DNA of 64,000 nt. Source: an uncultured Candidatus Saccharibacteria bacterium. GTDB lineage: Bacteria; Patescibacteriota; JABMPQ01; JAQVVF01. Position 1 is the stretch's first letter. Every line of letters starts with the position of its first letter. The notes under the pieces were generated by a model. The model was not told the DNA's origin. It searched no databases and was given only the letters and a program-made list of their open reading frames with translations. A program made the position numbers and the translations under genes. Positions 15,259 to 63,934 of the stretch are shown piece by piece. The stretch covers positions 2,046 to 66,045 of the forward strand of contig CAZNOH010000004.1 in NCBI GenBank assembly GCA_964574655.1, read 5' to 3'.

Positions 15259-15303
15259 ATATTTTTAATTAAAAATCTAAAATCTAAAGTCTAAAATAAA
15301 AAT

Positions 15304-15450
15304 CTACGGTTTTGCCGTAGGAAATAATATTTTAATATAACATTAGAATATTGAATGTTTTCCTCGGCAAGATTTATCCCGCACATAAAGCGTTATGTGC
15401 TGAACTTGCTGTCTTTGGACTTGTCCTCCGGAGTCTAGCAAGACGGAGGA
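15304..15450. other. Three GC-containing hairpins in the rplJ 5' region at the cassette boundary (15304-15320 ctacgg/ccgtag; 15381-15400 gcacataaagcgttatgtgc; 15424-15450 tcctccg/cggagga)
   Basis: Perfect short palindromes in an otherwise AT-rich spacer; the middle one has a near-identical twin at 40760-40780. Confidence 0.5.
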
Positions 15451-15518
15451 GGATTAAATTAACTTGTAACTATATTTTAGCAAGAAATATTGCATTGTCA
15501 AGAGAAAAAGAAAATATA

Positions 15519-15547
15519 TTGACAATTCTGTCTTAAAGGTGTATATT
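15519..15547 (+). promoter_or_regulatory. Sigma70-like promoter (TTGACA-17-TATATT) for the CsrA island
   Basis: ttgaca at 15519-15524, tatatt at 15542-15547. Confidence 0.5.
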
Positions 15548-15593
15548 TTAATGTTGTGGATGGACTTCCGGAAAGGCAGAACAGGAGGAAGAG

Positions 15594-15929
15594 ATGAAAG
15601 AAACGCTCGCGGTTTTTATTGGCATGCTGCCAATCATCTTTTGTGTTGTTGGCATCATTAGTGCTTCTTACGCAGTTATGCTTCTGTTGTACATTAAATC
15701 AGAGAAGTTCATGCAAATACGACGCTATGTAGCCATGCTCATTATATCCAGCGTTGTTGCTTCAACAGCTGGTTTTTTCATGGTATTCAATCAGTGGAAG
15801 GATGACATAGCTATTTTGTCAAATGCAAAACAATCTTGCGATGTAGAAATGCAGAATTGCAAAGAAAAAATTCGAGGAACAATTATTAATTTACATGGCT
15901 TAGACAGGCAATCTCTTGGGATCCGCTAA
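15594..15929 (+). CDS. Small 3-TM membrane protein (compositionally foreign cassette)
   Basis: GC about 42%; RBS caGGAGGaagag-ATG; hydrophobic segments. Confidence 0.5.
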   Translation: MKETLAVFIGMLPIIFCVVGIISASYAVMLLLYIKSEKFMQIRRYVAMLIISSVVASTAGFFMVFNQWKDDIAILSNAKQSCDVEMQNCKEKIRGTIINLHGLDRQSLGIR

Positions 15930-15970
15930 CTTCACCCCCCCCTATCAAGCTGAATGACTGTTCTTTCTTT

Positions 15971-15994
15971 ACCCTATTTAGTTAGGGTTTTTTA
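15971..15994 (+). terminator. Hairpin plus T-run terminator (ccctatttagttaggg)
   Basis: Near-identical to the terminator at 16830-16851. Confidence 0.5.
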
Positions 15995-16080
15995 TTGACA
16001 AAAATATATGAAATTGGTATTATGATGCTTGCATTGTTCAAATTGCCCTTCATAAAAAAGAAGGACGAGGAGGTCAGGAT

Positions 16081-16566
16081 ATGAAAAAGACGGCGTTGAT
16101 TTTTTTGTTAATGTTTGTCACTTCTCCAGTTTTTGCAAAACCTCAAGTTCAATCTGCTTTTGTCAGCGCAAGGCGTGAAGCTTTCCAAAGCTCTTATGCG
16201 ATGTGTCAAGACAAAGGACTGGCAAGAGAGTTGGGATATGGTACTGGAATTTATATTGAGGACGGTACGGAAAAACCATTTGAATGGTATGCTTGGACTG
16301 TTATTGATGGTTTTGTTCAGTTCCAATTCAATGTTTTGGTGAGCTACGGTGATCGCTACAAAATTATGGTAGAAACTGATTCAATCTCTGACAGGCCTTG
16401 GGATGCAAGAAGTGAAGATTATGAAACCTGTCTTGGAATTGACAATTCATGGGCTTCTTGTTTGCAAAAAAATAATTGCAATTACAAAACAATCTTGGAT
16501 AGCTATTTGGTAAAATTTGAGCGATTTATTTATTTCAAGGAAATGAAAGTAAATGCCTATTACTGA
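16081..16566 (+). CDS. Secreted hypothetical protein with signal peptide (foreign cassette)
   Basis: MKKTALIFLLMFVTSPVFA signal; RBS aGGAcgaGGAGGtcaGGAt-ATG. Confidence 0.5.
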   Translation: MKKTALIFLLMFVTSPVFAKPQVQSAFVSARREAFQSSYAMCQDKGLARELGYGTGIYIEDGTEKPFEWYAWTVIDGFVQFQFNVLVSYGDRYKIMVETDSISDRPWDARSEDYETCLGIDNSWASCLQKNNCNYKTILDSYLVKFERFIYFKEMKVNAYY

Positions 16567-16593
16567 TGCTTCAGTTCGAAAAGGAGGAAGGCA

Positions 16594-16821
16594 ATGCTGA
16601 CGTTGACAAGAAGGTCTGGCGAATCGATCATGATTGGCAATGATATTCGAATCGTTGTCCGTGAAATCAAGGGCAACCAAGTGAGAATCGGTATTGATGC
16701 GCCTAATAACGTTCCTATCTGGCGCGAAGAAATCTATGTGAAAATTCAAGACGAAAGTCAAGATCAAGGTCAACAAAATCAAGACAAAGATCTTGGAGTA
16801 ACTGCTCGCTTAGCACTTTAA
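16594..16821 (+). CDS. csrA: Carbon storage regulator CsrA (75 aa with C-terminal extension)
   Basis: MLTLTRRSGESIMIGNDIRIVVREIKGNQVRIGIDAPNNVPIWREEIY matches the CsrA consensus; RBS aaGGAGGaaGG. Confidence 0.8.
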   Translation: MLTLTRRSGESIMIGNDIRIVVREIKGNQVRIGIDAPNNVPIWREEIYVKIQDESQDQGQQNQDKDLGVTARLAL

Positions 16822-16829
16822 AAAAACAA

Positions 16830-16851
16830 CCCTATTAACTAGGGTTTTTTA
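16830..16851 (+). terminator. Hairpin plus T-run terminator (ccctattaactaggg)
   Basis: 5-bp stem followed by T6. Confidence 0.55.
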
Positions 16852-16884
16852 TTTGCAAAAAATTATGACTCTAAATTTTTATTT

Positions 16885-21936: not shown

Positions 21937-22028
21937 TGAAACTCGGTTTTTGAAAAAACCGAGTTTCTAGGTTTCTAAAAAACTAGTTTCTCATAAATAT
22001 TTTACCTTAAATTTAACTTTGCGTAAAT

Positions 22029-22060
22029 AAAAAAAGGCATTCTAAATTGATTATGCCTTT
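22029..22060 (-). terminator. Hairpin terminator overlapping the stop of 22051-22353
   Basis: aggcattctaaattgattatgcct with an A-run on the plus strand. Confidence 0.5.
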
Positions 22061-22353
22061 CGCAATTCCCAAATAATAGTGCGACGTTGATCATCAAGAC
22101 CGCATCCAATTATGAACGAGATTTCATCTTCTAACAATGTTTCAACAAAATCTTCCAAAATAATTCTTGGAATCGAGGATTTTGGAGTTCTGAAATCGAT
22201 GATCACGTCTTGATCCTGAAAATTTCTGGCAACAACAATTCGTCCATCCCAAAGCCTGAACTCAACTTCTAGATTATGCTTGAGCTGATCATCTAGTTGA
22301 TAAGGATTCGACATGTATCCGAGTAAATCAGACTGGTCTTGCAGTTCTCTCAA
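22051..22353 (-). CDS. Hypothetical 100-aa protein (foreign cassette); probable TTG start behind a GGGAGG SD. The ORF track extends it to ATG at 22383
   Basis: GC about 45%; aaaGGGAGGtgtacc-TTG; every other foreign cassette has GGAGG 6-10 nt before its start. Confidence 0.45.
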   Translation of the reverse strand: MRELQDQSDLLGYMSNPYQLDDQLKHNLEVEFRLWDGRIVVARNFQDQDVIIDFRTPKSSIPRIILEDFVETLLEDEISFIIGCGLDDQRRTIIWELRKA

Positions 22354-22402
22354 GGTACACCTCCCTTTTCTGCGTGTATTCAATACTATACTAATTTATC
22401 AT

Positions 22403-23596
22403 TTAAGTCAACAGGATAAAGACCTTGTCATTTTTTCTAACTCGCTTATCAACTCTCAAAGCCACTAAGTCACTTTTTTTAGCTTTTGTAATTTTTTGAT
22501 GATTGTTTTCGAGTGAACTAATTTTTTGTTCAAAGAAACTTGTTTGTCCTTCAACTAAAATTTTATCGCCAATCTTTAATGAATGGTGTTTCAAATCAAT
22601 TTCCGCAACTTTTATATTAGCATAATAATTTGTTACATAGCCAACTAGAACTTTTTTAACTGCACTTGCATTGTCAGCTTTTTCATAACTAATTCCAGAT
22701 TTATCAGGCTTACTAAAATAAAAGCCAGTTGAATAGCCTCGATTATAAACAGTATCTAATTCAGCCTGCCATTTATTTACTTTTTCCTGACTAAATGTTT
22801 TATCAAAATAAGCATTAACTGCTTCTTTATAGCATCTTGAAGTTACTTCGATGTATCTTGGATCTCTGCGCCTACCTTCAATCTTAAATGAATCAATGCC
22901 AGCTTTGATTAATTCTGGAACATATTTGATCATGCATAAATCTTTTGCAGACATAAAATATTGGCCTTTGTTAACTATTTTTTTTCCTTCTGGATCTTGC
23001 AAAATCCATTCTTTACGGCAAGGTTGAGAACAAGTTCCGCAATTAGCTGATGTGCCATATAGATAGCTAGATAAAATACAACGGCCAGAAATTGCCAAAC
23101 ACATTGCGCCATGGACGAATGTTTCTATTTCTATCTTAACTTTTTTCTTTAATTTCTTGATATCCTGCAAAGACATTTCACGTGCTAAGACAATTCTTTT
23201 TGCGCCAAGTTTTTGATAAAATATTGCTGTTTTGTAATTGCTAATATTCGCTTGTGTGGAAATGAAGAAATTGACCTTAAACTTTTTAGCTAGCTCAACT
23301 AAGCTTAAATCCCAAATTATAATGGCATCAACGCCTACTTGTTTGGCTTTTTTTATCAATTTTTCGGCTTTTTTGAGGTCATTATTATAGATGGCGGAAT
23401 TGACCGTTAAGTAGCTTTTTAAGCCAAATCGATGGCATTTTTTAATAAATCTAGGCATATCCCTTAATTTAATGCCTGAATGAGCGCGCATGCTTAGATT
23501 ATCAGAAATGCCAAAATAGACTGCGTCAGCGTAATCTTTGCAGGCATCAAGTGAAGCAAAATCGCGAATTGGGCTCATTGTTTCTGGTTGTTTCAT
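22403..23596 (-). CDS. Peptidase U32 family protein (RlhA/TrhP-type RNA hydroxylation enzyme family)
   Basis: GAMCLAISGRCILSSYL...CGTCSQPCR signature. Confidence 0.75.
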   Translation of the reverse strand: MKQPETMSPIRDFASLDACKDYADAVYFGISDNLSMRAHSGIKLRDMPRFIKKCHRFGLKSYLTVNSAIYNNDLKKAEKLIKKAKQVGVDAIIIWDLSLVELAKKFKVNFFISTQANISNYKTAIFYQKLGAKRIVLAREMSLQDIKKLKKKVKIEIETFVHGAMCLAISGRCILSSYLYGTSANCGTCSQPCRKEWILQDPEGKKIVNKGQYFMSAKDLCMIKYVPELIKAGIDSFKIEGRRRDPRYIEVTSRCYKEAVNAYFDKTFSQEKVNKWQAELDTVYNRGYSTGFYFSKPDKSGISYEKADNASAVKKVLVGYVTNYYANIKVAEIDLKHHSLKIGDKILVEGQTSFFEQKISSLENNHQKITKAKKSDLVALRVDKRVRKNDKVFILLT

Positions 23597-27091: not shown

Positions 27092-27120
27092 AAAAAAAAG
27101 AAGACCGGTAAGGGTCTTCT
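27092..27120 (-). terminator. Rho-independent terminator of the 617-aa high-GC gene
   Basis: agaagacc-ggtaa-gggtcttct followed on the minus strand by U7. Confidence 0.65.
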
Positions 27121-27215
27121 GAAGGAACGGGAATAGATAGAAATGTGCGGGTAGGTCTGCGTCACGTTGCGTGAGCAGAAACTGAAGTTGTCTGAAGTGT
27201 TGTTGGAAGGTTTTA

Positions 27216-29069
27216 TCAGCCGCCGTTGCCCTTCAGCCGTGGCTTGGCGCTGATCTGCTCGACCGGCTGACCATTGAGCCAGGCGGCCGTCTCGTCCGGC
27301 GTGGCCTCGTTGCTCTGCCCGCTGCCACCCTCGTTGCCGTGGGTGCCGCGCGGGTTCCTCTTCTGGATCGCGCTGCGGACCTGCGGCCCGTCCGGGTTCT
27401 TGGCCATGTACTTCTCGATGCGCATCTTCAGCGTCATCGTCCACAGCTTCCCGATGGCCAAACTGCCGTCCCGCCAGCTGTCATGCTGGTCCTGGGACAT
27501 CTCGTACAGCTCCGCGGCTTGCTCGGGCGTGAGGCTCGAGTCGCTCTTCAGCTTCTCGACGATGAGCTGCTTGCGCAGCTCCATCGCCTGCCACGCCTCC
27601 CACGCCGTCAGCACCACCAGCCGAGGCACCCAGAACTTCCCGCCGCCCTCGGCCTTCTTCAGTCGCCCCTCCTTGTCCACGACCCGGACCGGCACGATCG
27701 CCGTCCGGAAGAGGGGCTTGTTTTCCCGCCCGTAGGTGGTGAGCTGCGTCCCCTCTTCGCTGTTGTTGGGGTTGTCGCTCTTCACCATCAGGCCAGGGTC
27801 GGCCCGGAACCTCTCCAGGTCACCCCAGGACCGAGAGATTTCGGCCGTATTCAGCTTGCCACCGATCAGCCGACGCAACCACTCGATCGTGGCCTCGTGT
27901 TCCTTGTGCTCCTCGCTCGGCGCGGTCTCGGGGGCCAGCTCGATGAGGTCGGCGAGGTCGTCCACGACGCCCTCGACGTACTCGGCCTTCTTGCCCGCCG
28001 CTTCCTTCGCCCGCTGCTCCATCTCGGCGATCTGCTGACGCTCCCACGTCTCGCGGTTGATCTCGTGGATGTTCTTGAGCAGCTGCCATGCTTCCGACCC
28101 GCGGTACTTCCGGCTCTTCTCCATCAGCTCGACACGGAGCGCATCCATGCACTCCTGCGAGAGCTTGCCGGCCAGGGTCTCCGCGTTGCGCTCGTCCTTG
28201 AACTCGGGGTGGTGCTCGGCCATGATCTTGTCCCACACCGCCCACGAGCCTTCGACCATCTCCTTCTCGCGCTTGCCGGCCCACCGAGCCCACTTAATGT
28301 AGCCGTCCTTGTAGGTGAAGCTCAGGGGCTCCCGCAACGCGGGGTTTTCCCGGTTCAGGAGCGGCCGTAGCAGCTTCATCCCCGTCTCGATCTTGCCCAG
28401 CACGGGCATGCAGATCGCCGGGGGCTGCTGGTCCTTGTTGAAGTACCCCGGCTTCAGCTTCTTCATGAGCTGGACGACGGTACCTCGCTTGTCGCCCTGG
28501 GACAGGTGGATCTCGCTCATCGCGATCACCACGATGCCGTTCGGGCTGAAGGCCTGGTTCTCACCGAGCTGATCCGACACCACGAGCACCTCTTCCGGGT
28601 GGAAGAAGCACCCGACGGCCTTCGGGTAGTCCGGCTCGCTCGCCTTGTGGTAGTCCTCGTTGTCCTTCTCGCGCTGCTGCCGGTTGCGCTCCCGCGCGGC
28701 CTTCCGCCGTTGCTGCCGGGCGCGCCTCATGTCCTGCTTCTCCTGCCGGGTGAGCGGGCGCCCGACCTTGGCCTCCTCGGCCGCCTCCTCGGCTTGGGTC
28801 TCCTGCTCGTCCTCGTCGTCCCCGTCCTCGACCACGACGCCGTCCTCCACCACGGGGGCGGGGGGCTCGGCGACGGGCTGCTCGGTCACGATCTCGGTCT
28901 GCTCGGTCTTCTTGACGCGGGGCTTGCGCACCCGCTTCGGCTTCTCGACCTTCTCGGGCTCAACCTGGGCCTCCTCGGCCTGGGTCTCGCCATCCTTCAC
29001 CTCCTTCTTCTGCTCGGTGTTGTTGACGGTGATCTGGGAATCGGTCTTGGGTCCGCGCTTCGTACTCAT
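27216..29069 (-). CDS. Hypothetical 617-aa protein, about 65% GC: N-terminal ~140-aa charged disordered region (KPKRVRKPRVKK) then a large alpha-rich globular region; no recognised family
   Basis: Single long ORF with strong codon periodicity; RBS aGGAGGgtagaagag-ATG; own promoter-like TTGACA...TATAAA and own terminator; the plus-strand ORFs over it are high-GC artefacts. Confidence 0.6.
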   Translation of the reverse strand: MSTKRGPKTDSQITVNNTEQKKEVKDGETQAEEAQVEPEKVEKPKRVRKPRVKKTEQTEIVTEQPVAEPPAPVVEDGVVVEDGDDEDEQETQAEEAAEEAKVGRPLTRQEKQDMRRARQQRRKAARERNRQQREKDNEDYHKASEPDYPKAVGCFFHPEEVLVVSDQLGENQAFSPNGIVVIAMSEIHLSQGDKRGTVVQLMKKLKPGYFNKDQQPPAICMPVLGKIETGMKLLRPLLNRENPALREPLSFTYKDGYIKWARWAGKREKEMVEGSWAVWDKIMAEHHPEFKDERNAETLAGKLSQECMDALRVELMEKSRKYRGSEAWQLLKNIHEINRETWERQQIAEMEQRAKEAAGKKAEYVEGVVDDLADLIELAPETAPSEEHKEHEATIEWLRRLIGGKLNTAEISRSWGDLERFRADPGLMVKSDNPNNSEEGTQLTTYGRENKPLFRTAIVPVRVVDKEGRLKKAEGGGKFWVPRLVVLTAWEAWQAMELRKQLIVEKLKSDSSLTPEQAAELYEMSQDQHDSWRDGSLAIGKLWTMTLKMRIEKYMAKNPDGPQVRSAIQKRNPRGTHGNEGGSGQSNEATPDETAAWLNGQPVEQISAKPRLKGNGG

Positions 29070-29275
29070 CTCTTCTACCCTCCTAGGAGTCTTGGAACCA
29101 GAAACTGAAAACGCGCGCGCTCTAAACGCAGCATTGCACTGCGAAAAGCCATGTCCTGGAATAGTGGGAATAATCTGAATAATAATAATTTTTTATAACC
29201 TTCCAAATTGTCAGTGTTCTAGAATTACTATCAATATCTTGGCTCAAAATATTTTGAGACAAACTGCTGACAGCT

Positions 29276-29553: not shown

Positions 29554-29772
29554 TCAGCCCGACTTGGATCCCCGCGACTTGCCCTTCGCGCTGAGCTCCT
29601 GCGAGGTCTTGCCGGCACCAGCGACGACGGCGCCACGTGCCGGGGCCAGGTCACCGACGGCGACCTCGCCAAGGTTCTTCTCCTTCGTCTTCGCCTTCGC
29701 CGGACACATGCCCTTGCCATGCCGGTCGCCTCCGCTCTGAACTCGCTGGTGACAGTAGATGCAGTTCGACAT
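29554..29772 (-). CDS. Small 72-aa high-GC protein with CxxCH...C zinc-ribbon-like N-terminus and Lys-rich tail
   Basis: agaaGGAGGaaaagtcgcg-ATG; MSNCIYCHQRVQSGGDRHGKGMCPAKAKTKEK...; the ORF track places the start 18 codons upstream, but the SD-positioned ATG is at 29772. Confidence 0.5.
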   Translation of the reverse strand: MSNCIYCHQRVQSGGDRHGKGMCPAKAKTKEKNLGEVAVGDLAPARGAVVAGAGKTSQELSAKGKSRGSKSG

Positions 29773-29832
29773 CGCGACTTTTCCTCCTTCTCTCGAGTGA
29801 CTCTCTATTGGTCCCCCTCCCCGCAAACGTGA

Positions 29833-35670: not shown

Positions 35671-35913
35671 AAATATCTCGTAATTTATATTGTTGACAAA
35701 TTAATAATTATATAATATAATATTTAGTGCTCTTTTTAAATTCAGCTATTGTTTTGATCATGAGTTATCCCTATTATCCGCGTGTAATCCGTTAAAATCC
35801 GTTTTTCAAAAACGCGGGTGCAGACTGATTGCACACGGATAAAACGGATAACTTGCAACTTCAGAGTAGCAGAACTAAAACGCAAAGTCAAAGGCAAAAC
35901 GAGGAGGAAGAGA

Positions 35914-37419: not shown

Positions 37420-37615
37420 GAGGCTGATTTTTTTTGCTTACGAATCGCACAAATGCCTTACGACCGCGAATCTCGCTAATACACTTTTTGGCTTATTCTT
37501 CCCATTTCCCACGTCCTATTTCCCATTTCACAAATGGCATTGACAAAAATAAGGTGCTGTGATATGATGAAAGGCTCTAAATTCGGAGCGTACTCTCACA
37601 GCGTGGAGGTATGAG

Positions 37616-40909: not shown

Positions 40910-40928
40910 AAACCGATCTAAAATGAAC

Positions 40929-43872: not shown

Positions 43873-43920
43873 ATTTGTTCTTTTAAATTTGGAGAAAGAG
43901 AACCCAAGCAGGAGGGAAAG

Positions 43921-45021: not shown

Positions 45022-45023
45022 TT

Positions 45024-45047
45024 AACCGCTTTTACGCGGTTTTTTTA
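45024..45047 (+). terminator. Rho-independent terminator
   Basis: aaccgc-ttttac-gcggtt plus T7. Confidence 0.65.
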
Positions 45048-45193
45048 TTTACCATTGGCTTGTTAAAAGTCTATAAATTATGCATTTTTACCGACTAAAT
45101 ACATAATCTTAGAATATCGAACAAAGCCTAATTTTTTGCATAAACTTCTAACTGGCCTTGCAATTTATTATATTTAGTGTATAATGGTTTCAT

Positions 45194-46816: not shown

Positions 46817-47989
46817 ATGTTAAACCTAAAGTTGACTAAAAAGGAAATATTAAACATTGTTTTTTTGTTTGTGGGCTGGCGCTTGGTTTTGCAATTCATT
46901 GCCTTCCTTGGAAAATATCGCCTTTTTTTATCAACTGACAATGCTTATGATCACCTTTCTCCCTGGCACATTGATAAATTACCAGAATTTCTACAATATT
47001 TTGTAAAATGGGATTCTGGTTTTTATTTGGAAATCGCGGAAAAAGGATATTTTTTTGATCAAGCAAAAAATTTGTATAATGTAGCCTTCTTCCCTCTTTA
47101 TCCGTTGTTAATCAAAATATTTAGTTTTATTTTTCAATCTCGAGTAATTTCTGGAATTATTATATCAACTTTGGCTACTTTTGGCGCTTGTTTCTTTTTG
47201 TATAAACTTGCTAAACTTGAATTAAAGGATAATAATTCTGCCTTAAAATCAGTATTTTATTTTTTGATTTTTCCAACAGCTGTTTTTATAGCATCAATTT
47301 ATACTGAATCTTTATTTATATTTTTGGCAGTTGCATGTTTGTATTTTGCGAGAACAAAAAGGTTTGCGATTGCTTCATGTTTTGGTTTTTTTGCTGCTAT
47401 ATCTAGACCGATTGGCATAATTTTGTTTTTAGTTTTGATTTTGGAATATTTGGAACAGATTAATTTTAAATTCAAAGAAATTAAATTAGACATCTTGTGG
47501 ACGTTGCTTGTTCCAGCTGGTCTTTCAAGTTACATGATTTTTTTATGGATAAAGTTTAAAGATCCTTTATTATTTTTGAAAGCGCAAAATGCTTGGGATC
47601 GTAAAATTGGTTTTGATTTTTGGGGAATTTGGGTTGATCTAAAAAATCACGTTCATGACATTTTTTATCCATCACAAAATTTTGCTTTTTCGTTAAGAAA
47701 TGACTTTGAGTTTTTTTTCTTTATAACTTTTTTAATTCTGTCTATAATAGTCTTTTTTAGACTAAGAAAGTCTTATGGATTATATTGCTTTCTTGCTTTA
47801 CTAATTCCTTTTTTAACTGGCTCTCTAATTTCAATGACTAGATTCACATTAGTTTTATTTCCTGTTTTTATTTTGTTAGCTAAATTTACGATAAAGAGAG
47901 AATGGCTGAATTACTTTATAATTATGCTATTTTCAATGATGCTGAGTTTATTTACGATAATGCTTGCAAATTGGTATTGGATAGGATAA
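46817..47989 (+). CDS. Polytopic membrane protein (possible glycosyltransferase-like integral membrane family)
   Basis: About 10 predicted TM helices; native composition. Confidence 0.5.
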   Translation: MLNLKLTKKEILNIVFLFVGWRLVLQFIAFLGKYRLFLSTDNAYDHLSPWHIDKLPEFLQYFVKWDSGFYLEIAEKGYFFDQAKNLYNVAFFPLYPLLIKIFSFIFQSRVISGIIISTLATFGACFFLYKLAKLELKDNNSALKSVFYFLIFPTAVFIASIYTESLFIFLAVACLYFARTKRFAIASCFGFFAAISRPIGIILFLVLILEYLEQINFKFKEIKLDILWTLLVPAGLSSYMIFLWIKFKDPLLFLKAQNAWDRKIGFDFWGIWVDLKNHVHDIFYPSQNFAFSLRNDFEFFFFITFLILSIIVFFRLRKSYGLYCFLALLIPFLTGSLISMTRFTLVLFPVFILLAKFTIKREWLNYFIIMLFSMMLSLFTIMLANWYWIG

Positions 47990-48023
47990 AATAAAATGCT
48001 CTCTCAAAGAAGGAGGAGAAGAG

Positions 48024-48308
48024 ATGACTACTCACCGAATTCATCTAGATACTGGCGAAGGTAATTATATTTTCATACCGGAAGAAAAAAATGGCTTTTT
48101 GTTTTTCAAGCCTGAAGATCAACATTTGTTTGACTGCGGACCAAATTGGACAATCGGATATGTCTTTGAAAACGGAATTCCGAACGAAAATATCAAACCA
48201 GAAAAGATTGAAGATTTGAAAATCGGAATGGAAATGACATTGTTTTGCACAAGCTACGTTGATGCTTGGACAAAAGGCACTATTGAAAAAATCGAGCAAG
48301 TTCCTTGA
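48024..48308 (+). CDS. Hypothetical 94-aa protein (foreign cassette)
   Basis: RBS aagaaGGAGGagaagag-ATG; terminator follows. Confidence 0.45.
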   Translation: MTTHRIHLDTGEGNYIFIPEEKNGFLFFKPEDQHLFDCGPNWTIGYVFENGIPNENIKPEKIEDLKIGMEMTLFCTSYVDAWTKGTIEKIEQVP

Positions 48309-48321
48309 CGAATTGCACATT

Positions 48322-48349
48322 AGGTTCATAATATTTATGAACCTTTTTT
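48322..48349 (+). terminator. Rho-independent terminator
   Basis: aggttcataa-tattt-atgaacct plus T6. Confidence 0.65.
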
Positions 48350-48374
48350 ATTAGAACAACTTTTTTAGAATAAT

Positions 48375-49229
48375 ATGACTATAAAAGATATTTTAGAAAA
48401 ATCATCATTAGAATTGAAAAATATTTCTAGCTCTCCAGATTTAGATGCAGAAATTTTGTTGTCTTTTGTTTTGAAAAAAAATAAAGAATTTTTATTTGCA
48501 AATCCAGAAATTAAATTAAATCAAGAACAACTTAGACAATTTGATCAGCTTTTAGAGAGAAGAAAAAAACATGAACCAATTGCTTACATTATTAATAATA
48601 AAGAATTTTTTGGAATAAATTTTTATGTTGATAAAAGAGTATTGATTCCAAGACCGGAAACGGAAATTTTGGTTGAAGAAGCAATTGAAGAAGGCAAGAA
48701 GAGGATTGAGAAAAAATTTATTAATAAAGAAATAAAAATTGTTGATGTTGGAACTGGATCTGGATGCATTGCTATTTCATTGGCATTAAATTTGCCAGAA
48801 GCGCATATTTGGGCAACTGATATTTCTAAAGACGCTTTAGAAGTTGCCGAGAAAAATAGAATTAAAGAAAAAGTTGGAGTTGAATTTATGCCAGGCAATT
48901 TACTTGAGCCACTTGAAAATAACAAGGTTGATATAATTTGTGCTAATTTGCCATATATAACTGTTGAACAATTAGATCTGACTGAAGAAGATGTGAGAAA
49001 ATTTGAACCAAAGACTGCTTTAATTGCTAAAGAAGAAACGACGTTATATTCTGAATTGCTAGACCAAGCTCCAAAATATTTGAATAAAAATGGCATTATA
49101 TTTTTGGAAATTGATCCGGTTTTTAAAGATAAAATAATGAAGCTGGTTCAAGAAAAAATGCCAAATGCAAAATACGTGATTAAAAATGATTTAGCTGGAT
49201 GTGAGAGAGTGATGATAATTTGGACATAA
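48375..49229 (+). CDS. prmC: Release factor glutamine methyltransferase PrmC/HemK
   Basis: VDVGTGSGCIAISLA; NLPY (NPPY-type) motif. Confidence 0.8.
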   Translation: MTIKDILEKSSLELKNISSSPDLDAEILLSFVLKKNKEFLFANPEIKLNQEQLRQFDQLLERRKKHEPIAYIINNKEFFGINFYVDKRVLIPRPETEILVEEAIEEGKKRIEKKFINKEIKIVDVGTGSGCIAISLALNLPEAHIWATDISKDALEVAEKNRIKEKVGVEFMPGNLLEPLENNKVDIICANLPYITVEQLDLTEEDVRKFEPKTALIAKEETTLYSELLDQAPKYLNKNGIIFLEIDPVFKDKIMKLVQEKMPNAKYVIKNDLAGCERVMIIWT

Positions 49230-49255
49230 AAAAAGATTAGAAATGAATCTAATCT
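49229..49255 (-). terminator. Terminator of the NYN/OST-HTH foreign gene
   Basis: gattag-aaatgaat-ctaatc with U-run on the minus strand. Confidence 0.55.
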
Positions 49256-50197
49256 TCAGAAAAGAGCTTGAACTGATTCTAGAAGTCCTTCGTTGAGAGC
49301 TACTTGGACGAAAATATGTGCACGATCAAGAATGTAATAGACCCTATCGCTCTGTTCTTTTTTGAGAATGTTACAATCGATCAAGACGCTCAAAATTCCT
49401 CTGATGATGCCCTCGTCAAAGAAATGACCAGAAATCGCAAACCTTCCTTGGTCTTTCAAATAGTCCAGATAATATTTGAAACCATATTTTCCTGGCTTCA
49501 TCGAATTAATTGCAATAATTACATCTAGAGAAATTTTTAGATCGCGACAATGCACAAGTCCGGAATTTTCAAGTGCATCAATTAACCGGCTCGGACTTTC
49601 AAATGGTTGATTCAAAAATGTTCTTATATCATCAGAAACTTGAACTGCTGGTGGCTTTTCGCACGGCACTTCCAGCCTGATCGTTTTGTGCACGACTTGC
49701 TGGAGACTTTTGTTGCCTTCAGGACTATTGATCACAAGAATGACTGTTTTACGATGTTGTCTGGCGCGATTGATCACAGGAAGAAAGTCGCGATCGTGCG
49801 TGGCAAAAACAAAGATATTAATATCTGGACGTTTTTCTAGAAAATCATACACGTCATTGACCATCATTTCATCAACAGTATCCTTGGGCTTTTCAGATCC
49901 ATTAAGCTTCGGGCAATGAATCACTTTAAAGCCCTGAATTTGTGCCTTGGTCAGTAGATCATAACTGTTATTTCCTGCATTAGCGATAAAACGAACATCT
50001 GTGTAAATGCCAAGATATTCGATTGTGCCAATCACCAAAAGTTCCTGAAACAGAAATGAAAAAGTCTCAACACTCATTTGATTGCCTGCAAGCATATTAT
50101 CGTAATCCATGAACAAGGCAATTTTGTTGATTACTGTATTCTCTTCCCTTAACTGAATTTGACTGTTTTCTGCCATCTTCTCCTCCTCGTTGTTCAA
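49256..50197 (-). CDS. NYN (PIN-like RNase) domain protein with C-terminal OST-HTH/LOTUS-like domain (foreign cassette)
   Basis: IALFMDYDNM NYN signature; RBS acGAGGAGGagaag-ATG; GC about 42%. Confidence 0.55.
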   Translation of the reverse strand: MNNEEEKMAENSQIQLREENTVINKIALFMDYDNMLAGNQMSVETFSFLFQELLVIGTIEYLGIYTDVRFIANAGNNSYDLLTKAQIQGFKVIHCPKLNGSEKPKDTVDEMMVNDVYDFLEKRPDINIFVFATHDRDFLPVINRARQHRKTVILVINSPEGNKSLQQVVHKTIRLEVPCEKPPAVQVSDDIRTFLNQPFESPSRLIDALENSGLVHCRDLKISLDVIIAINSMKPGKYGFKYYLDYLKDQGRFAISGHFFDEGIIRGILSVLIDCNILKKEQSDRVYYILDRAHIFVQVALNEGLLESVQALF

Positions 50198-50283
50198 AGG
50201 TCAAGAAAATCGGTATTTTAAAGCATATCATTTTTTTATTGTTTTGTCAATCGTAATATTTATTTTTACTTTGTTTAAGCCAA

Positions 50284-55707: not shown

Positions 55708-56254
55708 GACGCAGAATTACGCAGAAGCTAACGCAGAAGACGCAGAACTTTTGCATCTTGCTGTGTCATAAACTCTACGAATTATTTCTGCTCCTTTAGG
55801 ATAACCAAAATTGACTAGAAATCCTAATTTATATTGTGAATTCTTAAGGTAATGCCAAAATTGTTCGATGTCTTGTTTGAACAAATTTGGTTTTGCTTTG
55901 AGTTCAATTAGAATTTTATCATTAATAATTAAATCTGGTATATAAATTCCAATTTTCTTGTTTAAATAATAAATACTTATTCTCTTTTGTTTATCAACTT
56001 TAAAACCTTGCTGTAGCAATCCGAAATAAAATGCTTCCTGATAAACTTTTTCTTTATGTCCGCTACCTAAAGTTTTATAAATCTCAAAGATAATTCCTCT
56101 GATTTTATATGATTCTTGTTTATATAAAAAGTCTGCCATTTCCCTCCTAAAATAACTTACTTATTTTTTATCTGCATTGTCTGCGTCAACTTCTGCATTA
56201 TTCCGCGATTTGTTTTCTGCTTTTTCTGCGTTCGCTTCTGCGTCATTCTGCGTT
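55708..56254. mobile_element. IVS-like cassette inside the atp operon: GxxExxY gene flanked by cgcagaa repeats (55708-55748) and inverted tctgcg repeats (56170-56254)
   Basis: Same repeat family as the gene-free palindrome at 35581-35670; located between atpA and atpG. Confidence 0.55.
55717..56139 (-). CDS. GxxExxY-family protein (PD-(D/E)XK-like, rRNA-IVS-associated family, TIGR04256-like)
   Basis: SYKIRGIIFEIYKTLGSGHKEKVYQEAF...ILIELKA...KLGFLVNFG; the last ~12 codons run into the flanking repeat and may be an ORF-caller artefact. Confidence 0.65.
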   Translation of the reverse strand: MADFLYKQESYKIRGIIFEIYKTLGSGHKEKVYQEAFYFGLLQQGFKVDKQKRISIYYLNKKIGIYIPDLIINDKILIELKAKPNLFKQDIEQFWHYLKNSQYKLGFLVNFGYPKGAEIIRRVYDTARCKSSASSALASA

Positions 56255-60687: not shown

Positions 60688-60733
60688 TTAAATGAATAAA
60701 GGCAAAAACCATTATCTGGCTTTTGCCTTTTAA

Positions 60734-61441
60734 TTATTCTTTTTTAGCTTCTTTTTTTACTTCTTTCTTTTCAGGTGCTGCTTTTCCTTCTGTTTCTGTG
60801 CTTTCAGCTTCTGGCTCTTCTTTTTTGACACCTTCAACTTTTTCAACATCTTCTTCAACGTCTTCCTTCAAAGATTCAAGCTCTTTTTCAGAACGAGGAG
60901 GCGTAACTGTTGCAACAACTTCTTCTTGATCTAAAGAAGTTACGACGTTTTGAGGAAGTGGCAAATCTTTTATTTTAATAACATCTTCAAAAGTATTAAG
61001 AGATGAAATATCTACAATAATTTCTTTAAGCAGATCAGCTGGCAAGCATTCAACTTCAATTTCATTGATATTTTTAACTAAAACACCTTCTAAATCTTTT
61101 ATGGCCTTTGATTGACCAATAAATTTCAATTCAACGTTTGCAGTGATCTTTTGAGTCATATCAACTCTTAAAAAATCGATGTGGATAACAGTATCCTTGA
61201 TTGGATCAAATTGAACATCCTTGATAAGTGCATTTTCTTTTTTTCCATCAATGTCCAAGCCAAGAACTGTACTCTCGCCTGCTTCTTTGTATAGCTTGAC
61301 AAAATTATTATATATTAACTCAATATGCAATGGTTTGAAATTTTTTCCATACAAAACAGCTGGAATTAATTTATTTTCTCTCATTTCACTTAAGGATTTT
61401 TTTAAATCTCTTGTTTTTGCTTTCAATATTAGTTCTGGCAT
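60734..61441 (-). CDS. rplY: 50S ribosomal protein L25 / general stress protein Ctc with acidic-Lys-rich C-terminal tail
   Basis: LKAKTRDLKKSLSEMRENKLIPAVLYG N-terminus. Confidence 0.75.
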   Translation of the reverse strand: MPELILKAKTRDLKKSLSEMRENKLIPAVLYGKNFKPLHIELIYNNFVKLYKEAGESTVLGLDIDGKKENALIKDVQFDPIKDTVIHIDFLRVDMTQKITANVELKFIGQSKAIKDLEGVLVKNINEIEVECLPADLLKEIIVDISSLNTFEDVIKIKDLPLPQNVVTSLDQEEVVATVTPPRSEKELESLKEDVEEDVEKVEGVKKEEPEAESTETEGKAAPEKKEVKKEAKKE

Positions 61442-61607
61442 AGGATAGATTAGTTAACAGTTAACAGCCAAGAGTTAACAGAATATGATAACTTAGAAAC
61501 CGCTAACGATTATGAATTTAATAAAATAAAAAAGACTATTTTTCGCAAAATCAATCAAGAATAATTATAGCATCTTTATTTTTTTTGGCAATATTAAATT
61601 CTAAATT

Positions 61608-61937
61608 TTAATGTTTTGTTTTTGACAAATGCTGATAAGCATAGATTACATCGTCAGAATTTATTTCTTTTGCTTTTCTGAATCTTAGAACATCTTCATA
61701 TGTGAGATCAGTAACCAAGCCAATTGAGCTGATGCCCATTGGATTTGCTATTAGACTGGCCAAAACAGAGCATCTGCATTTTTGACAGTAAGCATGGATT
61801 AAGAATGAGTCTTTTTTTTCAGAAATAATTCTCGCTTGATCGATGCTGAATTTGGTATTGCAAAATGGGCAGATGGAAAGCCATTTAACTTTTTCTAGCA
61901 TCTCGTGATTGTTCTTCTTAATATTATCTTCAAGCAT
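61608..61937 (-). CDS. Hypothetical zinc-ribbon protein (CPFC...CQKCRC)
   Basis: 109 aa with two Cys pairs. Confidence 0.4.
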   Translation of the reverse strand: MLEDNIKKNNHEMLEKVKWLSICPFCNTKFSIDQARIISEKKDSFLIHAYCQKCRCSVLASLIANPMGISSIGLVTDLTYEDVLRFRKAKEINSDDVIYAYQHLSKTKH

Positions 61938-62045
61938 ATTTACATTATATATGTAATGGTATTTTTTTCAAGAAATAATTGACGATACTGACTTTTTTTG
62001 TTAAGCTCATACTAGTTCTTTGCAAGAAGGGAGAGGAGGAGAAAA

Positions 62046-62774
62046 ATGGGAAACAGACAGATTAGCATGGATGATGCTCTAGTATTGTTAGCTCAACAAC
62101 AAATAGATCAGTTTAATCAATGGAGGCAACAGAATAGTGTATCAAAAGAAACGCTTGTTATCCCAGGCGATTTTTGTCAGCACTTCAATATGTTTGATTT
62201 TTCTGGCTGTAACTTAAGCGGGGCTAATTGCAGAGGCTTGAAATTGTCTGCAGAAGACGGTAAATTTTTGGTAAAAGCATGCCAAGTGGATTTTTCTTAT
62301 TCTGATTTGAGCGATGCTTATTGCAAAGGCGTTGATTTTTCAGGATCTGATTTTACTGGCACGAAATTGAATGGGACTGATTGCAGATGTTGCAATTTCG
62401 ATCGCTGTAAAATTTCGGCTGAACAGCTCAAATCTTGCAAGATCAGCGATGCAAAATTGACTAGAATTAACTTTAGAGACGGCTTTTCCTCTCAACGTCA
62501 AGATTTGCGCGGAGTAGACTTTTCAGAATCAATTTTTGGAGACTACTCATCACTAGAGAATTGTGATTTGCGAGGAGCAATGTTTTTTGGCACTTATTTG
62601 AAGGCTTCAGCAAAATTTGATGGCGCTAGGTTTTCTGGAAATATTGAAGATCTTGGACTTTCTTTACATCAAATGGATGGACTTAATTTATTGAACAAAT
62701 CAATTCTGCCTCTGCCTTGGCTGACTCTTCTGATGGAATACAGAAAGATGACATTACGATTTCCAAAAAAATAG
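62046..62774 (+). CDS. Pentapeptide-repeat protein (foreign cassette)
   Basis: Tandem A(D/N)LxG-type pentapeptides (FSGCNLSGANCRGLKLS...); RBS gaGAGGAGGagaaaa-ATG; terminator follows. Confidence 0.6.
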   Translation: MGNRQISMDDALVLLAQQQIDQFNQWRQQNSVSKETLVIPGDFCQHFNMFDFSGCNLSGANCRGLKLSAEDGKFLVKACQVDFSYSDLSDAYCKGVDFSGSDFTGTKLNGTDCRCCNFDRCKISAEQLKSCKISDAKLTRINFRDGFSSQRQDLRGVDFSESIFGDYSSLENCDLRGAMFFGTYLKASAKFDGARFSGNIEDLGLSLHQMDGLNLLNKSILPLPWLTLLMEYRKMTLRFPKK

Positions 62775-62788
62775 ACGAACGTTATTTC

Positions 62789-62815
62789 AATCTCACATAT
62801 TTGTGGGATTTTTTA
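62789..62815 (+). terminator. Rho-independent terminator, convergent with the ftsW/rodA stop
   Basis: aatctcaca-tatt-tgtgggatt plus T4. Confidence 0.55.
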
Positions 62816-63934
62816 TTTGAATTCTAAACCCTTATATCTAACAAAGATACTCTGGACAATTCCCAAAGAGATCATGCTGGCAATCATGGCGCTTCCGCCA
62901 TAGCTGACTAGAGGAAGCGGAACTCCAGCAATTGGCATAATGCTTAAATTCATTCCTATATTAACAAGGATCTGGAAAGTAAAACCAATGGCAATTCCAC
63001 AACAAACCATTAATCCAAATTCATCGCGCGCTTTCATGGCGGTTCTTAAGATTCTAAAAATTAGAACAAAAAATAGCACTAATAAAAATGAACTGCCAAT
63101 AAAACCAAGCTCTTCAGAAATTACTGCAAATATAAAATCAGTGTGTTGAGCTGGTAAAAATTTTAATTGGCTTTGACTGCCATGGCCCAAGCCTTGACCT
63201 GTCATTGCTCCTGAACCGATGGCAATTTTGGCTTGAATCATATTATAGCCCTGACCTAGAGGATCTGCTTCAGGATTGATAAAGCTAGTAATTCTATTTT
63301 TTTGATAATCATATAAAAAGAAATTCCAGACAATGGATGTAAGTGCCAAGCCAATAATGACGATTGCTAGAATGTATGATTTTTTTAATCCTGATATCAA
63401 AAGCATTCCAAACCAAGTAACAACCAAAACTAAAGCTGAACCCATATCAGGCTGAAGCATAATTAAAAATGAAGGAATCGCCATGATAATTCCAGAAACA
63501 ATTACGTGTTTTAAAATGCTTTGCTTTTTTGCATTGACAAAATATCTTGCCAATATAACGATTAAAGCAATTTTAATAAATTCTGCTGGCTGGAATTGAA
63601 AAAAACCAAGATTAAACCAGCCCTTGGTGCCTTGAAAAATTGTTCCAAAGAAAAGAACCAAAACTAAAGAAACCGTAAAAATGGTATACAGAATATACGC
63701 GTAGCTTTGAAAAATTCGGTAATCTAGAATTATCATTATAAAGAATAATACTAGACCAAGAACAACAGCAATTATTTGCTTAACAACAAAGTCTTGCAAT
63801 CCTTCTTGATAAGTAGTGCTAATGATCGCTGCTAAACCTAAAACCGCCAATAAAAGCATTGACGAAAATAAAAACCAATCAAGTTTTTTAAAAATTTGAA
63901 GAAACTTGAGCATAAAAAAATTTTCAATTATCAA
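62813..63934 (-). CDS. ftsW: SEDS-family peptidoglycan glycosyltransferase FtsW/RodA
   Basis: 10-TM SEDS topology; conserved C-terminal region. Confidence 0.8.
   Translation of the reverse strand: MIIENFFMLKFLQIFKKLDWFLFSSMLLLAVLGLAAIISTTYQEGLQDFVVKQIIAVVLGLVLFFIMIILDYRIFQSYAYILYTIFTVSLVLVLFFGTIFQGTKGWFNLGFFQFQPAEFIKIALIVILARYFVNAKKQSILKHVIVSGIIMAIPSFLIMLQPDMGSALVLVVTWFGMLLISGLKKSYILAIVIIGLALTSIVWNFFLYDYQKNRITSFINPEADPLGQGYNMIQAKIAIGSGAMTGQGLGHGSQSQLKFLPAQHTDFIFAVISEELGFIGSSFLLVLFFVLIFRILRTAMKARDEFGLMVCCGIAIGFTFQILVNIGMNLSIMPIAGVPLPLVSYGGSAMIASMISLGIVQSIFVRYKGLEFK

What the first reader, a model, noticed from the sequence alone, without database searches (positions are those of the whole stretch)
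15300..62820. Thirteen SD-bearing, self-terminated, compositionally foreign single-gene cassettes scattered through an SD-less AT-rich core genome
Native genes (atp, dcw, r-proteins, prfA and others) sit in about 30% GC DNA and show no Shine-Dalgarno motif before their start codons; several have a TATAAT box almost abutting the ATG. Thirteen ORFs have clearly higher GC (about 40-45%, 58% or 65%) and every one carries GGAGG 6-10 nt upstream of its start, often in the form GGAGG-agaagag-ATG; most are followed by their own hairpin/T-run terminator. Coordinates: 15594-15929, 16081-16566, 16594-16821, 22051-22353, 27216-29069, 29554-29772, 35914-37419, 37616-38206, 40929-41375, 43921-45021, 48024-48308, 49256-50197, 62046-62774. 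They are inserted one by one between, and sometimes within, housekeeping operons (for example between prfA and prmC, between rpsB and tsf, and next to rplJ). Natural piecemeal HGT on this scale, with such uniform ribosome-binding sites but at least three donor GC classes, would be highly unusual. The alternatives are an engineered or chimeric sequence, or a dedicated translation regime for acquired genes.
Basis: seen in the sequence. Interest (0 to 1): 0.8.

Follow-up and report, generated by a model that had tools for sequence, protein, structure and literature searches.

The report
Second gene class in tiny bacterium
In this AT-rich, ultra-small (Patescibacteria) bacterium about one gene in five is a self-contained accessory unit with a textbook ribosome-binding site and a higher G+C content that is actively kept high over evolutionary time, so these genes are a natural, long-resident second class of genes and are neither engineered nor freshly imported DNA.

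Summary
All 13 listed ORFs have GGAGG 5-10 nt before the start (anti-SD pairing -10.3 to -12.6 kcal/mol). Only 1 of 50 other genes does, and that one is itself a small PD-(D/E)XK insert. The 13 also differ in GC3 and synonymous codon use (p about 1e-7). At least 7 have a recognisable sigma70-type promoter 29-57 nt upstream. Ten or eleven have a hairpin/T-run terminator.

The interpretation needs changing. The window is a natural Patescibacteria (CPR) genome. Independent assemblies and four related genomes show the same two gene classes at syntenic positions, so it is not engineered or chimeric. The units are not recent imports either. Six are shared with a relative whose neutral sites have diverged by about 0.9 substitutions per site, several were lost in another relative, and no homologues exist outside this clade. 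The 617-aa gene keeps GC3 0.90-0.93 in three lineages although its fourfold sites are near saturation. Its changes are mostly C<->G (69) rather than G/C->A/T (18); neighbouring AT-rich genes show 2 versus 32. High GC is therefore actively maintained.

Best reading: an old, fast-evolving accessory gene set expressed through a separate, SD-dependent route. Why its GC is held high is unknown. The clade's 16S anti-SD could not be checked.

The parts
15519..15997 (+). Unit 1. Promoter TTGACA-17-TATATT, 46-nt leader, GGAGG with a 5-nt spacer. CDS 15594-15929 (111 aa, three hydrophobic segments; membrane protein by inspection). Terminator CCCTA..TAGGG+T6ATT.
   Evidence: GC3 0.39
15995..16856 (+). 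Unit 2, bicistronic. Promoter TTGACA-17-TATTAT. CDS 16081-16566 (161 aa, N-terminal signal-peptide-like sequence) and CDS 16594-16821 (CsrA, Pfam PF02599), each with its own GGAGG. One terminator after CsrA.
21960..22411 (-). Unit 3. CDS 22051-22353 (100 aa, TTG start, GGGAGG with a 6-nt spacer) between the peptidase U32 gene and the CCA-adding enzyme gene.
27093..29215 (-). Unit 4, high GC. CDS 27216-29069 (617 aa, GC 0.66, GC3 0.93). About 100-nt leader (about 0.54 GC) with GGAGG (9-nt spacer). Conserved AT-rich upstream region CTAGAACACTGACAATTTGGAAGGT. Terminator GAAGACC..GGTCTTC+T8.
29554..29830 (-). Unit 5, high GC. CDS 29554-29772 (72 aa, Cys-rich N-terminus, GC 0.66, GC3 0.81) with GGAGGA (10-nt spacer). 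Orthologues in L007, and L004 by motif. No terminator found.
35693..37435 (+). Unit 6. Consensus TTGACA-17-TATAAT about 200 nt upstream (read by eye). CDS 35914-37419 (501 aa, TPR-like) with GAGGAGGAAGAGA-ATG. Terminator overlaps the stop. Absent from L002, present in L007 with an identical RBS.
37540..38280 (+). Unit 7, high GC. Promoter TTGACA-17-TATGAT (88% conserved in L002), 47-nt leader. CDS 37616-38206 (196 aa, GC 0.60, GC3 0.74). Terminator about 38251-38280.
40895..41442 (-). Unit 8. Promoter TTGACA-17-TACAAT. CDS 40929-41375 (148 aa, signal-peptide-like N-terminus). Terminator GATCGG..CCGGTC+T6ATT. Absent from L002 and L003; present in L007 (44% aa identity).
43890..45052 (+). Unit 9. 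CDS 43921-45021, ribose-phosphate pyrophosphokinase with a Cys-rich N-terminal extension. GGAGGG with a 5-nt spacer; terminator AACCGC..GCGGTT+T run. Absent at this site in L002; present in L003 and L007.
47964..48352 (+). Unit 10. CDS 48024-48308 (94 aa) between the PIG-V-like gene and prmC. AAGGAGGAGAAGAG-ATG; terminator GGTTCATAA..TTATGAACC+T6ATT. Orthologue in L002 (56% aa identity).
49228..50250 (-). Unit 11. Promoter TTGACA-17-TATGCT. CDS 49256-50176 (306 aa, NYN domain; true start is the ATG at 50176). Terminator abuts the stop. Absent from L002 and L003.
61990..62818 (+). Unit 12. CDS 62046-62774 (242 aa, pentapeptide repeats) with GAGGAGGAGAAAA-ATG. Terminator TCTCACA..TGTGGGA+T6ATT. 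Lies between a 109-aa ORF and ftsW/rodA.
55717..56139 (-). AT-rich (GC3 0.19) PD-(D/E)XK_3 gene inserted between atpA and atpG. It is the only gene outside the 13 with a strong SD (TAGGAGGGAA-ATG).

Best explanation
The window comes from a natural Patescibacteria (CPR) genome that holds two kinds of transcription unit.

Core genes are about 30% GC. Their translation-initiation regions are 84% A+T and G-poor, with no SD, and some are leaderless.

Interspersed between them are autonomous accessory units.
- Shown: at least seven units have a recognisable sigma70-type promoter; five read ATTGACA-like/17/TAnnAT.
- Shown: each has a perfect GGAGG 5-10 nt from the start, and the leader is roughly 30-200 nt where a promoter can be placed.
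- Shown: most end at their own intrinsic terminator, which insulates the neighbouring housekeeping operons.
- Shown: their proteins are restricted to this clade and evolve fast (44-75% identity where neighbours are 84-92%). They include signal-peptide-like and membrane proteins, TPR, pentapeptide, NYN and CsrA.
- Shown: the units are ancient residents of fixed intergenic sites that are occasionally lost or gained as whole units.
- Shown: their higher GC, up to GC3 0.93, is maintained. G/C->A/T changes at synonymous sites are filtered out while C<->G changes pass.
- Inferred: because their start regions are GC-rich, they cannot use the unstructured A/U-rich entry route of core mRNAs. They depend on SD:anti-SD recruitment of 30S subunits. 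This gives the cell a separate, separately controllable translation channel for host-interaction or regulatory genes.
- Inferred: the GC-retaining force acts on the transcript (stability, structure or decoding), because the GC island coincides with the transcribed region.
For: Natural origin and taxon.

Dichotomy in SD, composition, codon use, terminators and promoters. The same association holds in relatives (Fisher p=2.6e-6).

SD conserved in orthologues while the UTRs diverge.

Synteny and presence/absence:
- The TPR unit, the 148-aa unit, prs and the NYN unit are absent from L002 at gaps of 4-100 nt.
- The TPR unit, the 196-aa unit, the 148-aa unit, prs and the 72-aa unit are present in the more diverged L007.

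Fast protein evolution and calibration: native fourfold sites differ 0.45-0.56, about 0.86 substitutions per site.

Maintenance of GC:
- Orthologues of the 617-aa gene have GC3 0.93/0.93/0.90, with 43-56% of fourfold sites different.
- Lineage-specific changes are S>S 69, S>W 18, W>S 3. Native genes give S>W 32, S>S 2 (Fisher p=3.5e-14).
- Neutral decay would predict GC3 of about 0.62-0.65.

GC island equals transcript: GC falls to 0.12-0.38 within about 40 nt of the promoter and in the spacer between two GC-rich genes.

No outside homologues: 3 hits among 5.8e9 proteins and 6 among 1.84e9 representatives for the 617-aa protein; 5 hits for the TPR protein, the only one carrying a source name being labelled Patescibacteria.

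A mid-GC paralogue of the 617-aa central domain exists in L007. GGAG is the most depleted 4-mer inside the high-GC genes (z=-6), which suggests they are read by anti-SD-bearing ribosomes.
Against: - The 16S rRNA 3' end of this clade was not available. A subgroup of Parcubacteria is reported to lack the anti-SD motif (PMC9297842).
- Avoidance of SD-like motifs in native genes is weak (AGGA ranks 15/256, GGAG 67/256). Use of the SD by the cell's own ribosomes is therefore inferred, not shown.
- No expression data exist.
- No known mechanism explains selection for GC3 0.9 in a 32% GC genome. UTR GC (about 0.5) lies between the baseline and the fourfold sites (0.93). That fits neither pure codon selection nor pure RNA-level selection.
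- For the ten mid-GC units the shift is modest (GC3 about 0.35 against 0.24). Weak codon selection in lowly expressed genes could explain it.
- The 196-aa family shows lower GC3 (0.45) in the most distant relative, so some decay may occur.
- Orthologue sets are small (3-4 genomes) and parsimony counts at near-saturated sites are approximate.
Confidence: 0.55

Rival explanations
1. Recent piecemeal horizontal transfer. Each unit came, with its own RBS and terminator, from one of several SD-using donors of different GC and has not yet ameliorated.
For: Atypical GC and codon use. Presence/absence differences between relatives. GC1 and GC2 are also raised in the high-GC genes, as expected after long residence in a GC-rich genome. 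CsrA, prs and NYN are widespread families that could have been imported once.
Against: Units are syntenic in relatives separated by about 0.9 substitutions per neutral site. The distribution fits ancestral presence plus loss. There are no homologues outside the clade. GC3 is stationary, with C<->G turnover instead of decay. AT-rich promoters and flanks are conserved along with the gene. No integrase, repeats or tRNA-end junctions were seen at the empty/filled sites.
Confidence: 0.1
2. Artefact or design: an engineered construct, a chimeric assembly or a mis-binned contig.
For: Uniform-looking GGAGG-purine-ATG sites and tidy terminators. Abrupt GC steps.
Against: A Logan contig from raw reads is 100% identical across a junction. 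JGI, ENA, Logan and GTDB assemblies from other samples carry diverged orthologues in the same places. Flanking modules share only 9-14-nt consensus motifs.
Confidence: 0.01
3. GC-biased gene conversion at recombination hot spots. Accessory loci that are often exchanged between strains are driven GC-rich and diverge fast, without selection on the RNA.
For: It links flexibility, fast divergence and high GC. The S>W deficit with tolerated S<->S changes is also what gBGC predicts.
Against: GC alternates between 0.65 and 0.15-0.3 over tens of bases at transcript edges, and the 450-bp spacer between two GC-rich genes is AT-rich. UTRs are only about 0.5 GC. The effect is far larger than reported for bacteria (own knowledge: Lassalle et al. 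2015).
Confidence: 0.12
4. A regulon defined by its RBS. The SD/GGA-rich leaders are binding sites for the cassette-encoded CsrA, or for a C/U-rich RNA, which switches the whole class on or off. This is compatible with the best explanation.
For: CsrA is itself one of the units. All leaders carry GGA within GGAGG(A), and several carry extra GGA motifs. A conserved structured RNA next to rpsB displays CCUUCCUCC in an internal loop. GGA is depleted in coding regions.
Against: GGA is implicit in any SD. Only 3-4 of the 13 sites match the RNA beyond GGAGG (by inspection). The RNA looks like an rpsB attenuator leader. There are no binding data.
Confidence: 0.1
5. Genes tuned for expression in another cell. 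The canonical promoter, SD and GC-rich codons match a GC-rich host into which nucleic acid is delivered by the episymbiont.
For: Expression signals and codon usage are foreign to the resident genome yet conserved. Some Parcubacteria are reported to lack the anti-SD.
Against: No transfer machinery or precedent is known. There are three different GC levels. Ordinary secreted, membrane and housekeeping-type (prs, CsrA) products are in the same class. Native genes show some SD-like motif avoidance.
Confidence: 0.03

Closest known systems
Phage 'morons' (Hendrix/Juhala; own knowledge)
   Same: Single genes with their own promoter and terminator, inserted between neighbouring genes. Nucleotide composition differs from the flanks. 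Present or absent between relatives.
   Different: Here they lie in a cellular chromosome among housekeeping operons, with no phage genes (PHROGs negative). They are old and syntenic, and are set apart from the host genes by use of an SD.
Leaderless/SD-independent versus leadered/SD gene classes in Mycobacterium and Deinococcus (PMC3898074, PMC4633059, PMC4007540; listed, not read here)
   Same: Two initiation modes coexist in one genome and are tied to different functional gene sets.
   Different: As I recall (own knowledge), in those organisms many core genes use an SD and the classes do not differ in base composition. Here no core gene in 64 kb has an SD, and the SD class is compositionally distinct and accessory.
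Bacteroidia: SD-poor genomes with a retained but occluded anti-SD, where rare SD-bearing genes such as rpsU are regulated through it (own knowledge: Jha 2021, McNutt 2023)
   Same: SD confined to a small special subset of genes in an otherwise SD-less, A-rich-leader genome.
   Different: Different phylum. Here the subset is about 20% of genes, consists of clade-specific accessory units, and is GC-shifted. The state of the anti-SD is unknown.
Genomic islets/HGT with amelioration (own knowledge: Lawrence & Ochman 1997)
   Same: Atypical GC and codon usage in accessory genes.
   Different: No decay toward the genome composition despite near-saturated synonymous divergence. There are no donor homologues and no mobility genes.
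Anti-SD-lacking Parcubacteria (Tsurumaki et al. 2022, PMC9297842)
   Same: A CPR lineage whose core genes have no SD.
   Different: That work reports loss of the rRNA motif. Here a conserved SD-bearing gene class argues that an anti-SD is in use, but this was not tested.

Membership tests
Recently transferred genomic islet | Atypical composition relative to the resident genome | tested here: met
   GC3 and codon-use differences, p about 1e-7
Recently transferred genomic islet | Absent from close relatives and gained on the terminal branch | tested here: not met
   Five units are shared with the more diverged L007 and missing from, or replaced in, L002. This pattern fits loss.
Recently transferred genomic islet | Composition decaying toward the host (amelioration) | tested here: not met
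   GC3 is 0.90-0.93 in three lineages; S>S 69 against S>W 18; neutral expectation about 0.62
Recently transferred genomic islet | Homologues in plausible donor lineages | tested here: not met
   3-6 homologues in total, all in AT-rich CPR contexts where context was readable
Phage moron / prophage gene | Own promoter and terminator, inserted between genes | tested here: met
Phage moron / prophage gene | Located in a phage or prophage | tested here: not met
   Flanks are atp, dcw, r-protein, prfA/prmC, tsf and rpsB genes. There are no PHROG hits of note.
Integron gene cassette | Promoterless ORF followed by attC, arrayed next to intI | tested here: not met
   The units have their own promoters, are scattered and lie on both strands. 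No integrase was found among the roughly 50 window proteins scanned against Pfam (a few small ORFs were not scanned). Long palindromes occur in native spacers as well.
Engineered expression cassettes | Re-used identical RBS, promoter or terminator parts; no natural diverged orthologues | tested here: not met
   Only 9-14-nt consensus matches between units. Diverged orthologues occur in five other assemblies.
SD-led leadered mRNA class | Leader of tens of nt with strong anti-SD complementarity at 5-10 nt, conserved in orthologues | tested here: met
SD-led leadered mRNA class | Resident 16S rRNA carries the CCUCC anti-SD | not testable with these tools
Indirect motif-avoidance evidence is weak.

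The most novel reading that the evidence does not exclude
A Patescibacteria clade maintains a compositionally and translationally insulated second gene-expression channel. About 20% of its genes, all clade-specific and fast-evolving, keep a perfect SD and a selectively maintained GC-rich coding sequence (GC3 up to 0.93 in a 32% GC genome), so they can be switched independently of the SD-less core. Possible switches are ribosome state, CsrA or an anti-SD-like RNA, or a special tRNA subset. In the extreme version the genes are read in a different cytoplasm. Selection that holds synonymous sites G/C-rich in single genes of an AT-rich bacterium would itself be a new phenomenon.
Probability: 0.2. 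Interest if true: 0.9.

Novelty: new variant of a known kind. Interest (0 to 1): 0.68.

Why it matters
CPR bacteria are a large, uncultured part of bacterial diversity, and how they initiate translation is poorly known. Some are reported to have lost the anti-SD.

A clean split between an SD-less core and an SD-dependent accessory gene set would give a sequence-readable marker for the genes most likely to mediate host interaction. It would affect gene calling and start prediction in these genomes. It would also provide a natural system for studying how two initiation modes are balanced.

Single genes held at GC3 of about 0.9 in a 32% GC genome through about one substitution per neutral site contradict the usual amelioration picture. 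This points to an unrecognised force on synonymous sites.

Tried and rejected
- A concatenated query of seven ORFan proteins found nothing, not even the proteins themselves. This was a tool limitation and a wasted search. Exact look-up showed that each of the ten cassette proteins looked up is a singleton cluster at 90% identity.
- The AlphaFold model of the 617-aa protein from a 3-sequence alignment was poor (pLDDT 50), so I ran no fold search. Its function stays unknown.
- PHROGs and Pfam gave nothing for the ORFans.
- A metagenome scan for the 196-aa family added only one locus.
- I looked for target-site duplications or terminal repeats at empty versus filled sites and found none. The intergenic DNA is too diverged for exact boundaries.
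- I tested avoidance of SD-like motifs in native genes as a proxy for a working anti-SD. It is present but not outstanding among 4-mers, so it is inconclusive.
- I tested for an avoided A/U-rich RNase-type motif in the high-GC genes. Nothing stood out beyond GGAG, GGGG and TA-containing words.
- Rfam gave no match for the conserved non-coding elements.
- Literature searches found no description of this gene-class split in CPR.

Full report
**What the window is.** The 64-kb window is about 32% GC, with islands of 55-69% GC at 27.0-29.1, 29.5-29.8 and 37.6-38.2 kb. Pfam annotation gives a gene set typical of CPR/Patescibacteria:
- a dcw cluster (mraZ, mraW, PBP, Mur ligase, ftsW);
- an atp operon;
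- rplJ-rplL, rpsB, tsf, pyrH, rpmE, prfA and prmC;
- truD, an Elp3-like radical-SAM protein, TrmB and DUF3048.

The closest genomes in GTDB are 'Patescibacteria group bacterium STF1_73' (L002, about 82% nt identity) and MAG CSMAG_2461 (L003, about 72%). A 645-kb Patescibacteria contig (L007) is syntenic over 16 kb.

- *SD motif.* All 13 ORFs carry GGAGG with a 5-10-nt spacer. Pairing with the anti-SD is -10.3 to -12.6 kcal/mol for 13/13. Only 1/50 other genes reaches -6 or lower. Their median (+0.6) is weaker than that of random 20-mers (-0.9).
- *Start regions.* Upstream regions of the other genes are 16% GC and almost free of G. Those of the cassettes are 51% GC.
- *The one exception.* The single AT-rich gene with an SD (55717-56139) is a PD-(D/E)XK_3 gene inserted between atpA and atpG. 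No true housekeeping gene in the window has an SD.
- *Composition.* GC, GC3 and synonymous-codon likelihood separate the two sets with p of 3e-7, 7e-7 and 2e-7.
- *Promoters.* Five units have near-consensus promoters (TTGACA-17-TAnnAT, at least 10 of 12 positions) 38-57 nt before the ATG. Two more have weaker matches at 29 and 31 nt.
- *Terminators.* Ten or eleven of the 13 end in a hairpin plus TTTTTTATT, against 10/50 other genes.
- *Corrections.* The NYN gene starts at 50176. The 161-aa gene and CsrA form one bicistronic unit. prs has native-like GC3 (0.24). Native genes are not uniformly leaderless, because several have long leaders that still lack an SD.

**Not an artefact and not engineered.**
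- A Logan contig from SRR13723393 is 100% identical over 25549-28377. It spans the junction between an AT-rich gene and the 66% GC gene.
- Diverged orthologues of the units occur at the same positions in JGI, ENA, Logan and GTDB assemblies from other samples.
- The units' flanks share only 9-14-nt consensus stretches (the SD/purine run, ATTGACAAAA, T6ATT). They do not share re-used parts.

**Not recent piecemeal transfer.**
- *Presence and absence.* In L002 the TPR, 148-aa, prs and NYN units are missing at gaps of 4-100 nt, while the 94-aa and 196-aa units are present. L002 and L003 carry other inserts at other spacers.
- *Ancestral presence.* The more diverged L007 carries orthologues of the TPR, 196-aa, 148-aa, prs and 72-aa units at the same sites. 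For the TPR gene the RBS is identical. These units were therefore present in the common ancestor and lost in L002.
- *Generality.* L007, L003 and L004 also hold further SD-bearing, GC-shifted units: MYG1 exonuclease, several small ORFs and a 755-aa GC-rich gene. Across the relatives, SD presence associates with GC3 of at least 0.30 (Fisher p=2.6e-6).
- *No donors.* The 617-aa protein has 3 hits among 5.8e9 proteins and 6 among 1.84e9 representatives. Where context could be read, it is AT-rich and CPR-like. The TPR protein has 5 hits; the only one with a source name is labelled Patescibacteria, and its three contigs are syntenic CPR contexts.
- *Singletons.* All ten cassette proteins looked up are singletons at 90% identity.

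**High GC is maintained.**
- *Calibration.* Native orthologues of the window and L007 are 84-92% identical in protein (truD 71%). They differ at 45-56% of fourfold sites, about 0.86 substitutions per site after correction.
- *Cassette genes over the same span.* The 196-aa gene keeps GC3 0.74/0.81 (0.86 in L002) and the 72-aa gene keeps 0.81/0.88.
- *The 617-aa gene.* Its orthologues in the window, L004 (with flanks syntenic to the window) and L006 are 61-69% identical in protein. They differ at 43-56% of fourfold sites, where saturation is about 56%. All three have GC3 0.90-0.93 inside flanks of about 0.28 GC.
- *Direction of change.* Majority-rule polarisation of 146 shared fourfold sites gives 69 C<->G changes, 18 G/C->A/T and 3 A/T->G/C. 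In neighbouring native genes, G/C sites give 32 G/C->A/T and 2 C<->G. The contrast has p=3.5e-14.
- *Neutral expectation.* Under the native substitution regime, a GC3 of 0.93 should have fallen to about 0.62 per lineage.
- *Conclusion.* G/C->A/T changes are being removed in these genes.
- *Sharp edges.* The GC island matches the transcript. GC is about 0.54 in the 5' UTR and 0.6-0.8 in the CDS. It drops to 0.12-0.38 within about 40 nt at the promoter and in the 450-bp spacer between the two GC-rich genes. That sharpness argues against tract-wise biased gene conversion.
- *Family not fixed in GC.* A mid-GC (0.37) paralogue of the 617-aa central domain exists in L007.

**What the units encode and how fast they change.** Products include:
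- CsrA, an NYN-domain protein, a pentapeptide-repeat protein and a TPR-like protein;
- Prs with a Cys-rich N-terminal extension;
- two proteins with signal-peptide-like N-termini and one small membrane protein;
- several ORFans.

Orthologues are 37-75% identical where neighbouring core proteins are 84-92%. The SD is kept in every orthologue even though the leaders diverge. The promoter of the 196-aa unit is 88% conserved, while the protein is only 37% identical.

**Mechanism proposed.** Each unit is transcribed from its own promoter, translated after SD-mediated 30S binding, and terminated at its own terminator. Core mRNAs start translation without an SD, on A/U-rich or leaderless 5' ends. GC-rich start regions cannot use that route, which would explain why a perfect SD is indispensable and conserved in this class. 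The outcome is a separate channel for fast-evolving accessory functions. The transcript-delimited, selection-like retention of G/C is shown. Its cause (RNA stability or structure, decoding, or something else) is not known.

**Is the SD read by the cell's own ribosomes?** This is inferred only. GGAG is the most depleted 4-mer inside the high-GC genes (z=-6). Avoidance in native genes is unremarkable. The 16S 3' end could not be obtained. A Parcubacteria subgroup is reported to lack the anti-SD (PMC9297842).

**Rivals.**
- Recent HGT (0.10) and artefact or design (0.01) are disfavoured by the evidence above.
- Biased gene conversion (0.12) fits the substitution pattern but not the sharp edges.
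- A CsrA- or RNA-controlled regulon (0.10) is compatible with the best explanation but untested.
- Expression in a host cell (0.03) is not excluded until the anti-SD is checked.

**Novelty.** The ingredients are known: moron-like autonomous units, dual initiation modes and atypical accessory genes. Five full-text searches found no description of the combination seen here. That combination is an SD-free core, an SD-obligate accessory class making up about 20% of genes, and single genes held at GC3 of about 0.9 in a 32% GC genome with C<->G turnover.

Noticed in passing
window 40690-40815, minus strand (upstream of rpsB): A conserved structured RNA of about 125 nt, 94% identical in L002 and 82% in L007; L003 keeps the 3' half. 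The consensus fold has 35 pairs, 8 of them with compensatory changes, and the folding z-score is -5.1. An internal loop displays CCUUCCUCC, which is anti-SD-like. The 3' end has a hairpin that competes with a terminator (UUCGCCAUGGGCGAA+U8). It looks like an rpsB (uS2) attenuator leader or an sRNA. There is no Rfam match.
   Followed up: partly
window 29893-29998 (mini-ORF 29898-29972, minus strand): A 107-nt non-coding-looking element, 89% identical to L004 302-408. It contains GAGGAGG-4 nt-ATG and a 24-codon ORF inside a long hairpin whose 3' arm (CCUCU) can mask the SD.
   Followed up: partly
window 5817-6188, 34515-34901, 55717-56139: Small AT-rich genes sit inside housekeeping operons. 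Two are '23S rRNA intervening-sequence protein' genes, one in the dcw cluster and one between pyrH and tsf. One is a PD-(D/E)XK_3 gene between atpA and atpG. Together they form a second, compositionally native kind of single-gene insert.
   Followed up: partly
window 26644-26781, 19284-19370, 32719-32813, 33645-33719, 29837-29899 and others: Long imperfect palindromes (arms of 30-67 nt) built from short A/T-rich repeats occupy many intergenic spacers. They bracket both core genes and cassettes. Their function is unknown; they could be terminators or REP-like elements.
   Followed up: no
window 43921-44060 (N-terminus of prs): Ribose-phosphate pyrophosphokinase carries a Cys-rich (zinc-ribbon-like) N-terminal extension of about 45 aa. 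The extension is conserved in L003 and L007.
   Followed up: no
window 29120-29150 versus L004 about 1690-1720 (5' UTR of the 617-aa gene): The leader hairpin shows a compensatory change: CGCAG..CUGCG in the window against CGUGG..CCACG in L004, with the same UGCAA loop. This suggests a functional leader structure (by inspection).
   Followed up: no
L007 4549-5157: A Y1 (IS200/IS605-type) transposase gene lies next to TrmB, flanked by repeated GAAACTCGGTTTTCTATTAATC sequences. It is absent from the window.
   Followed up: no
window 41-4276: A 1411-aa AT-rich ORF with chitobiase/Fn3-associated domains, probably a large surface protein.
   Followed up: no
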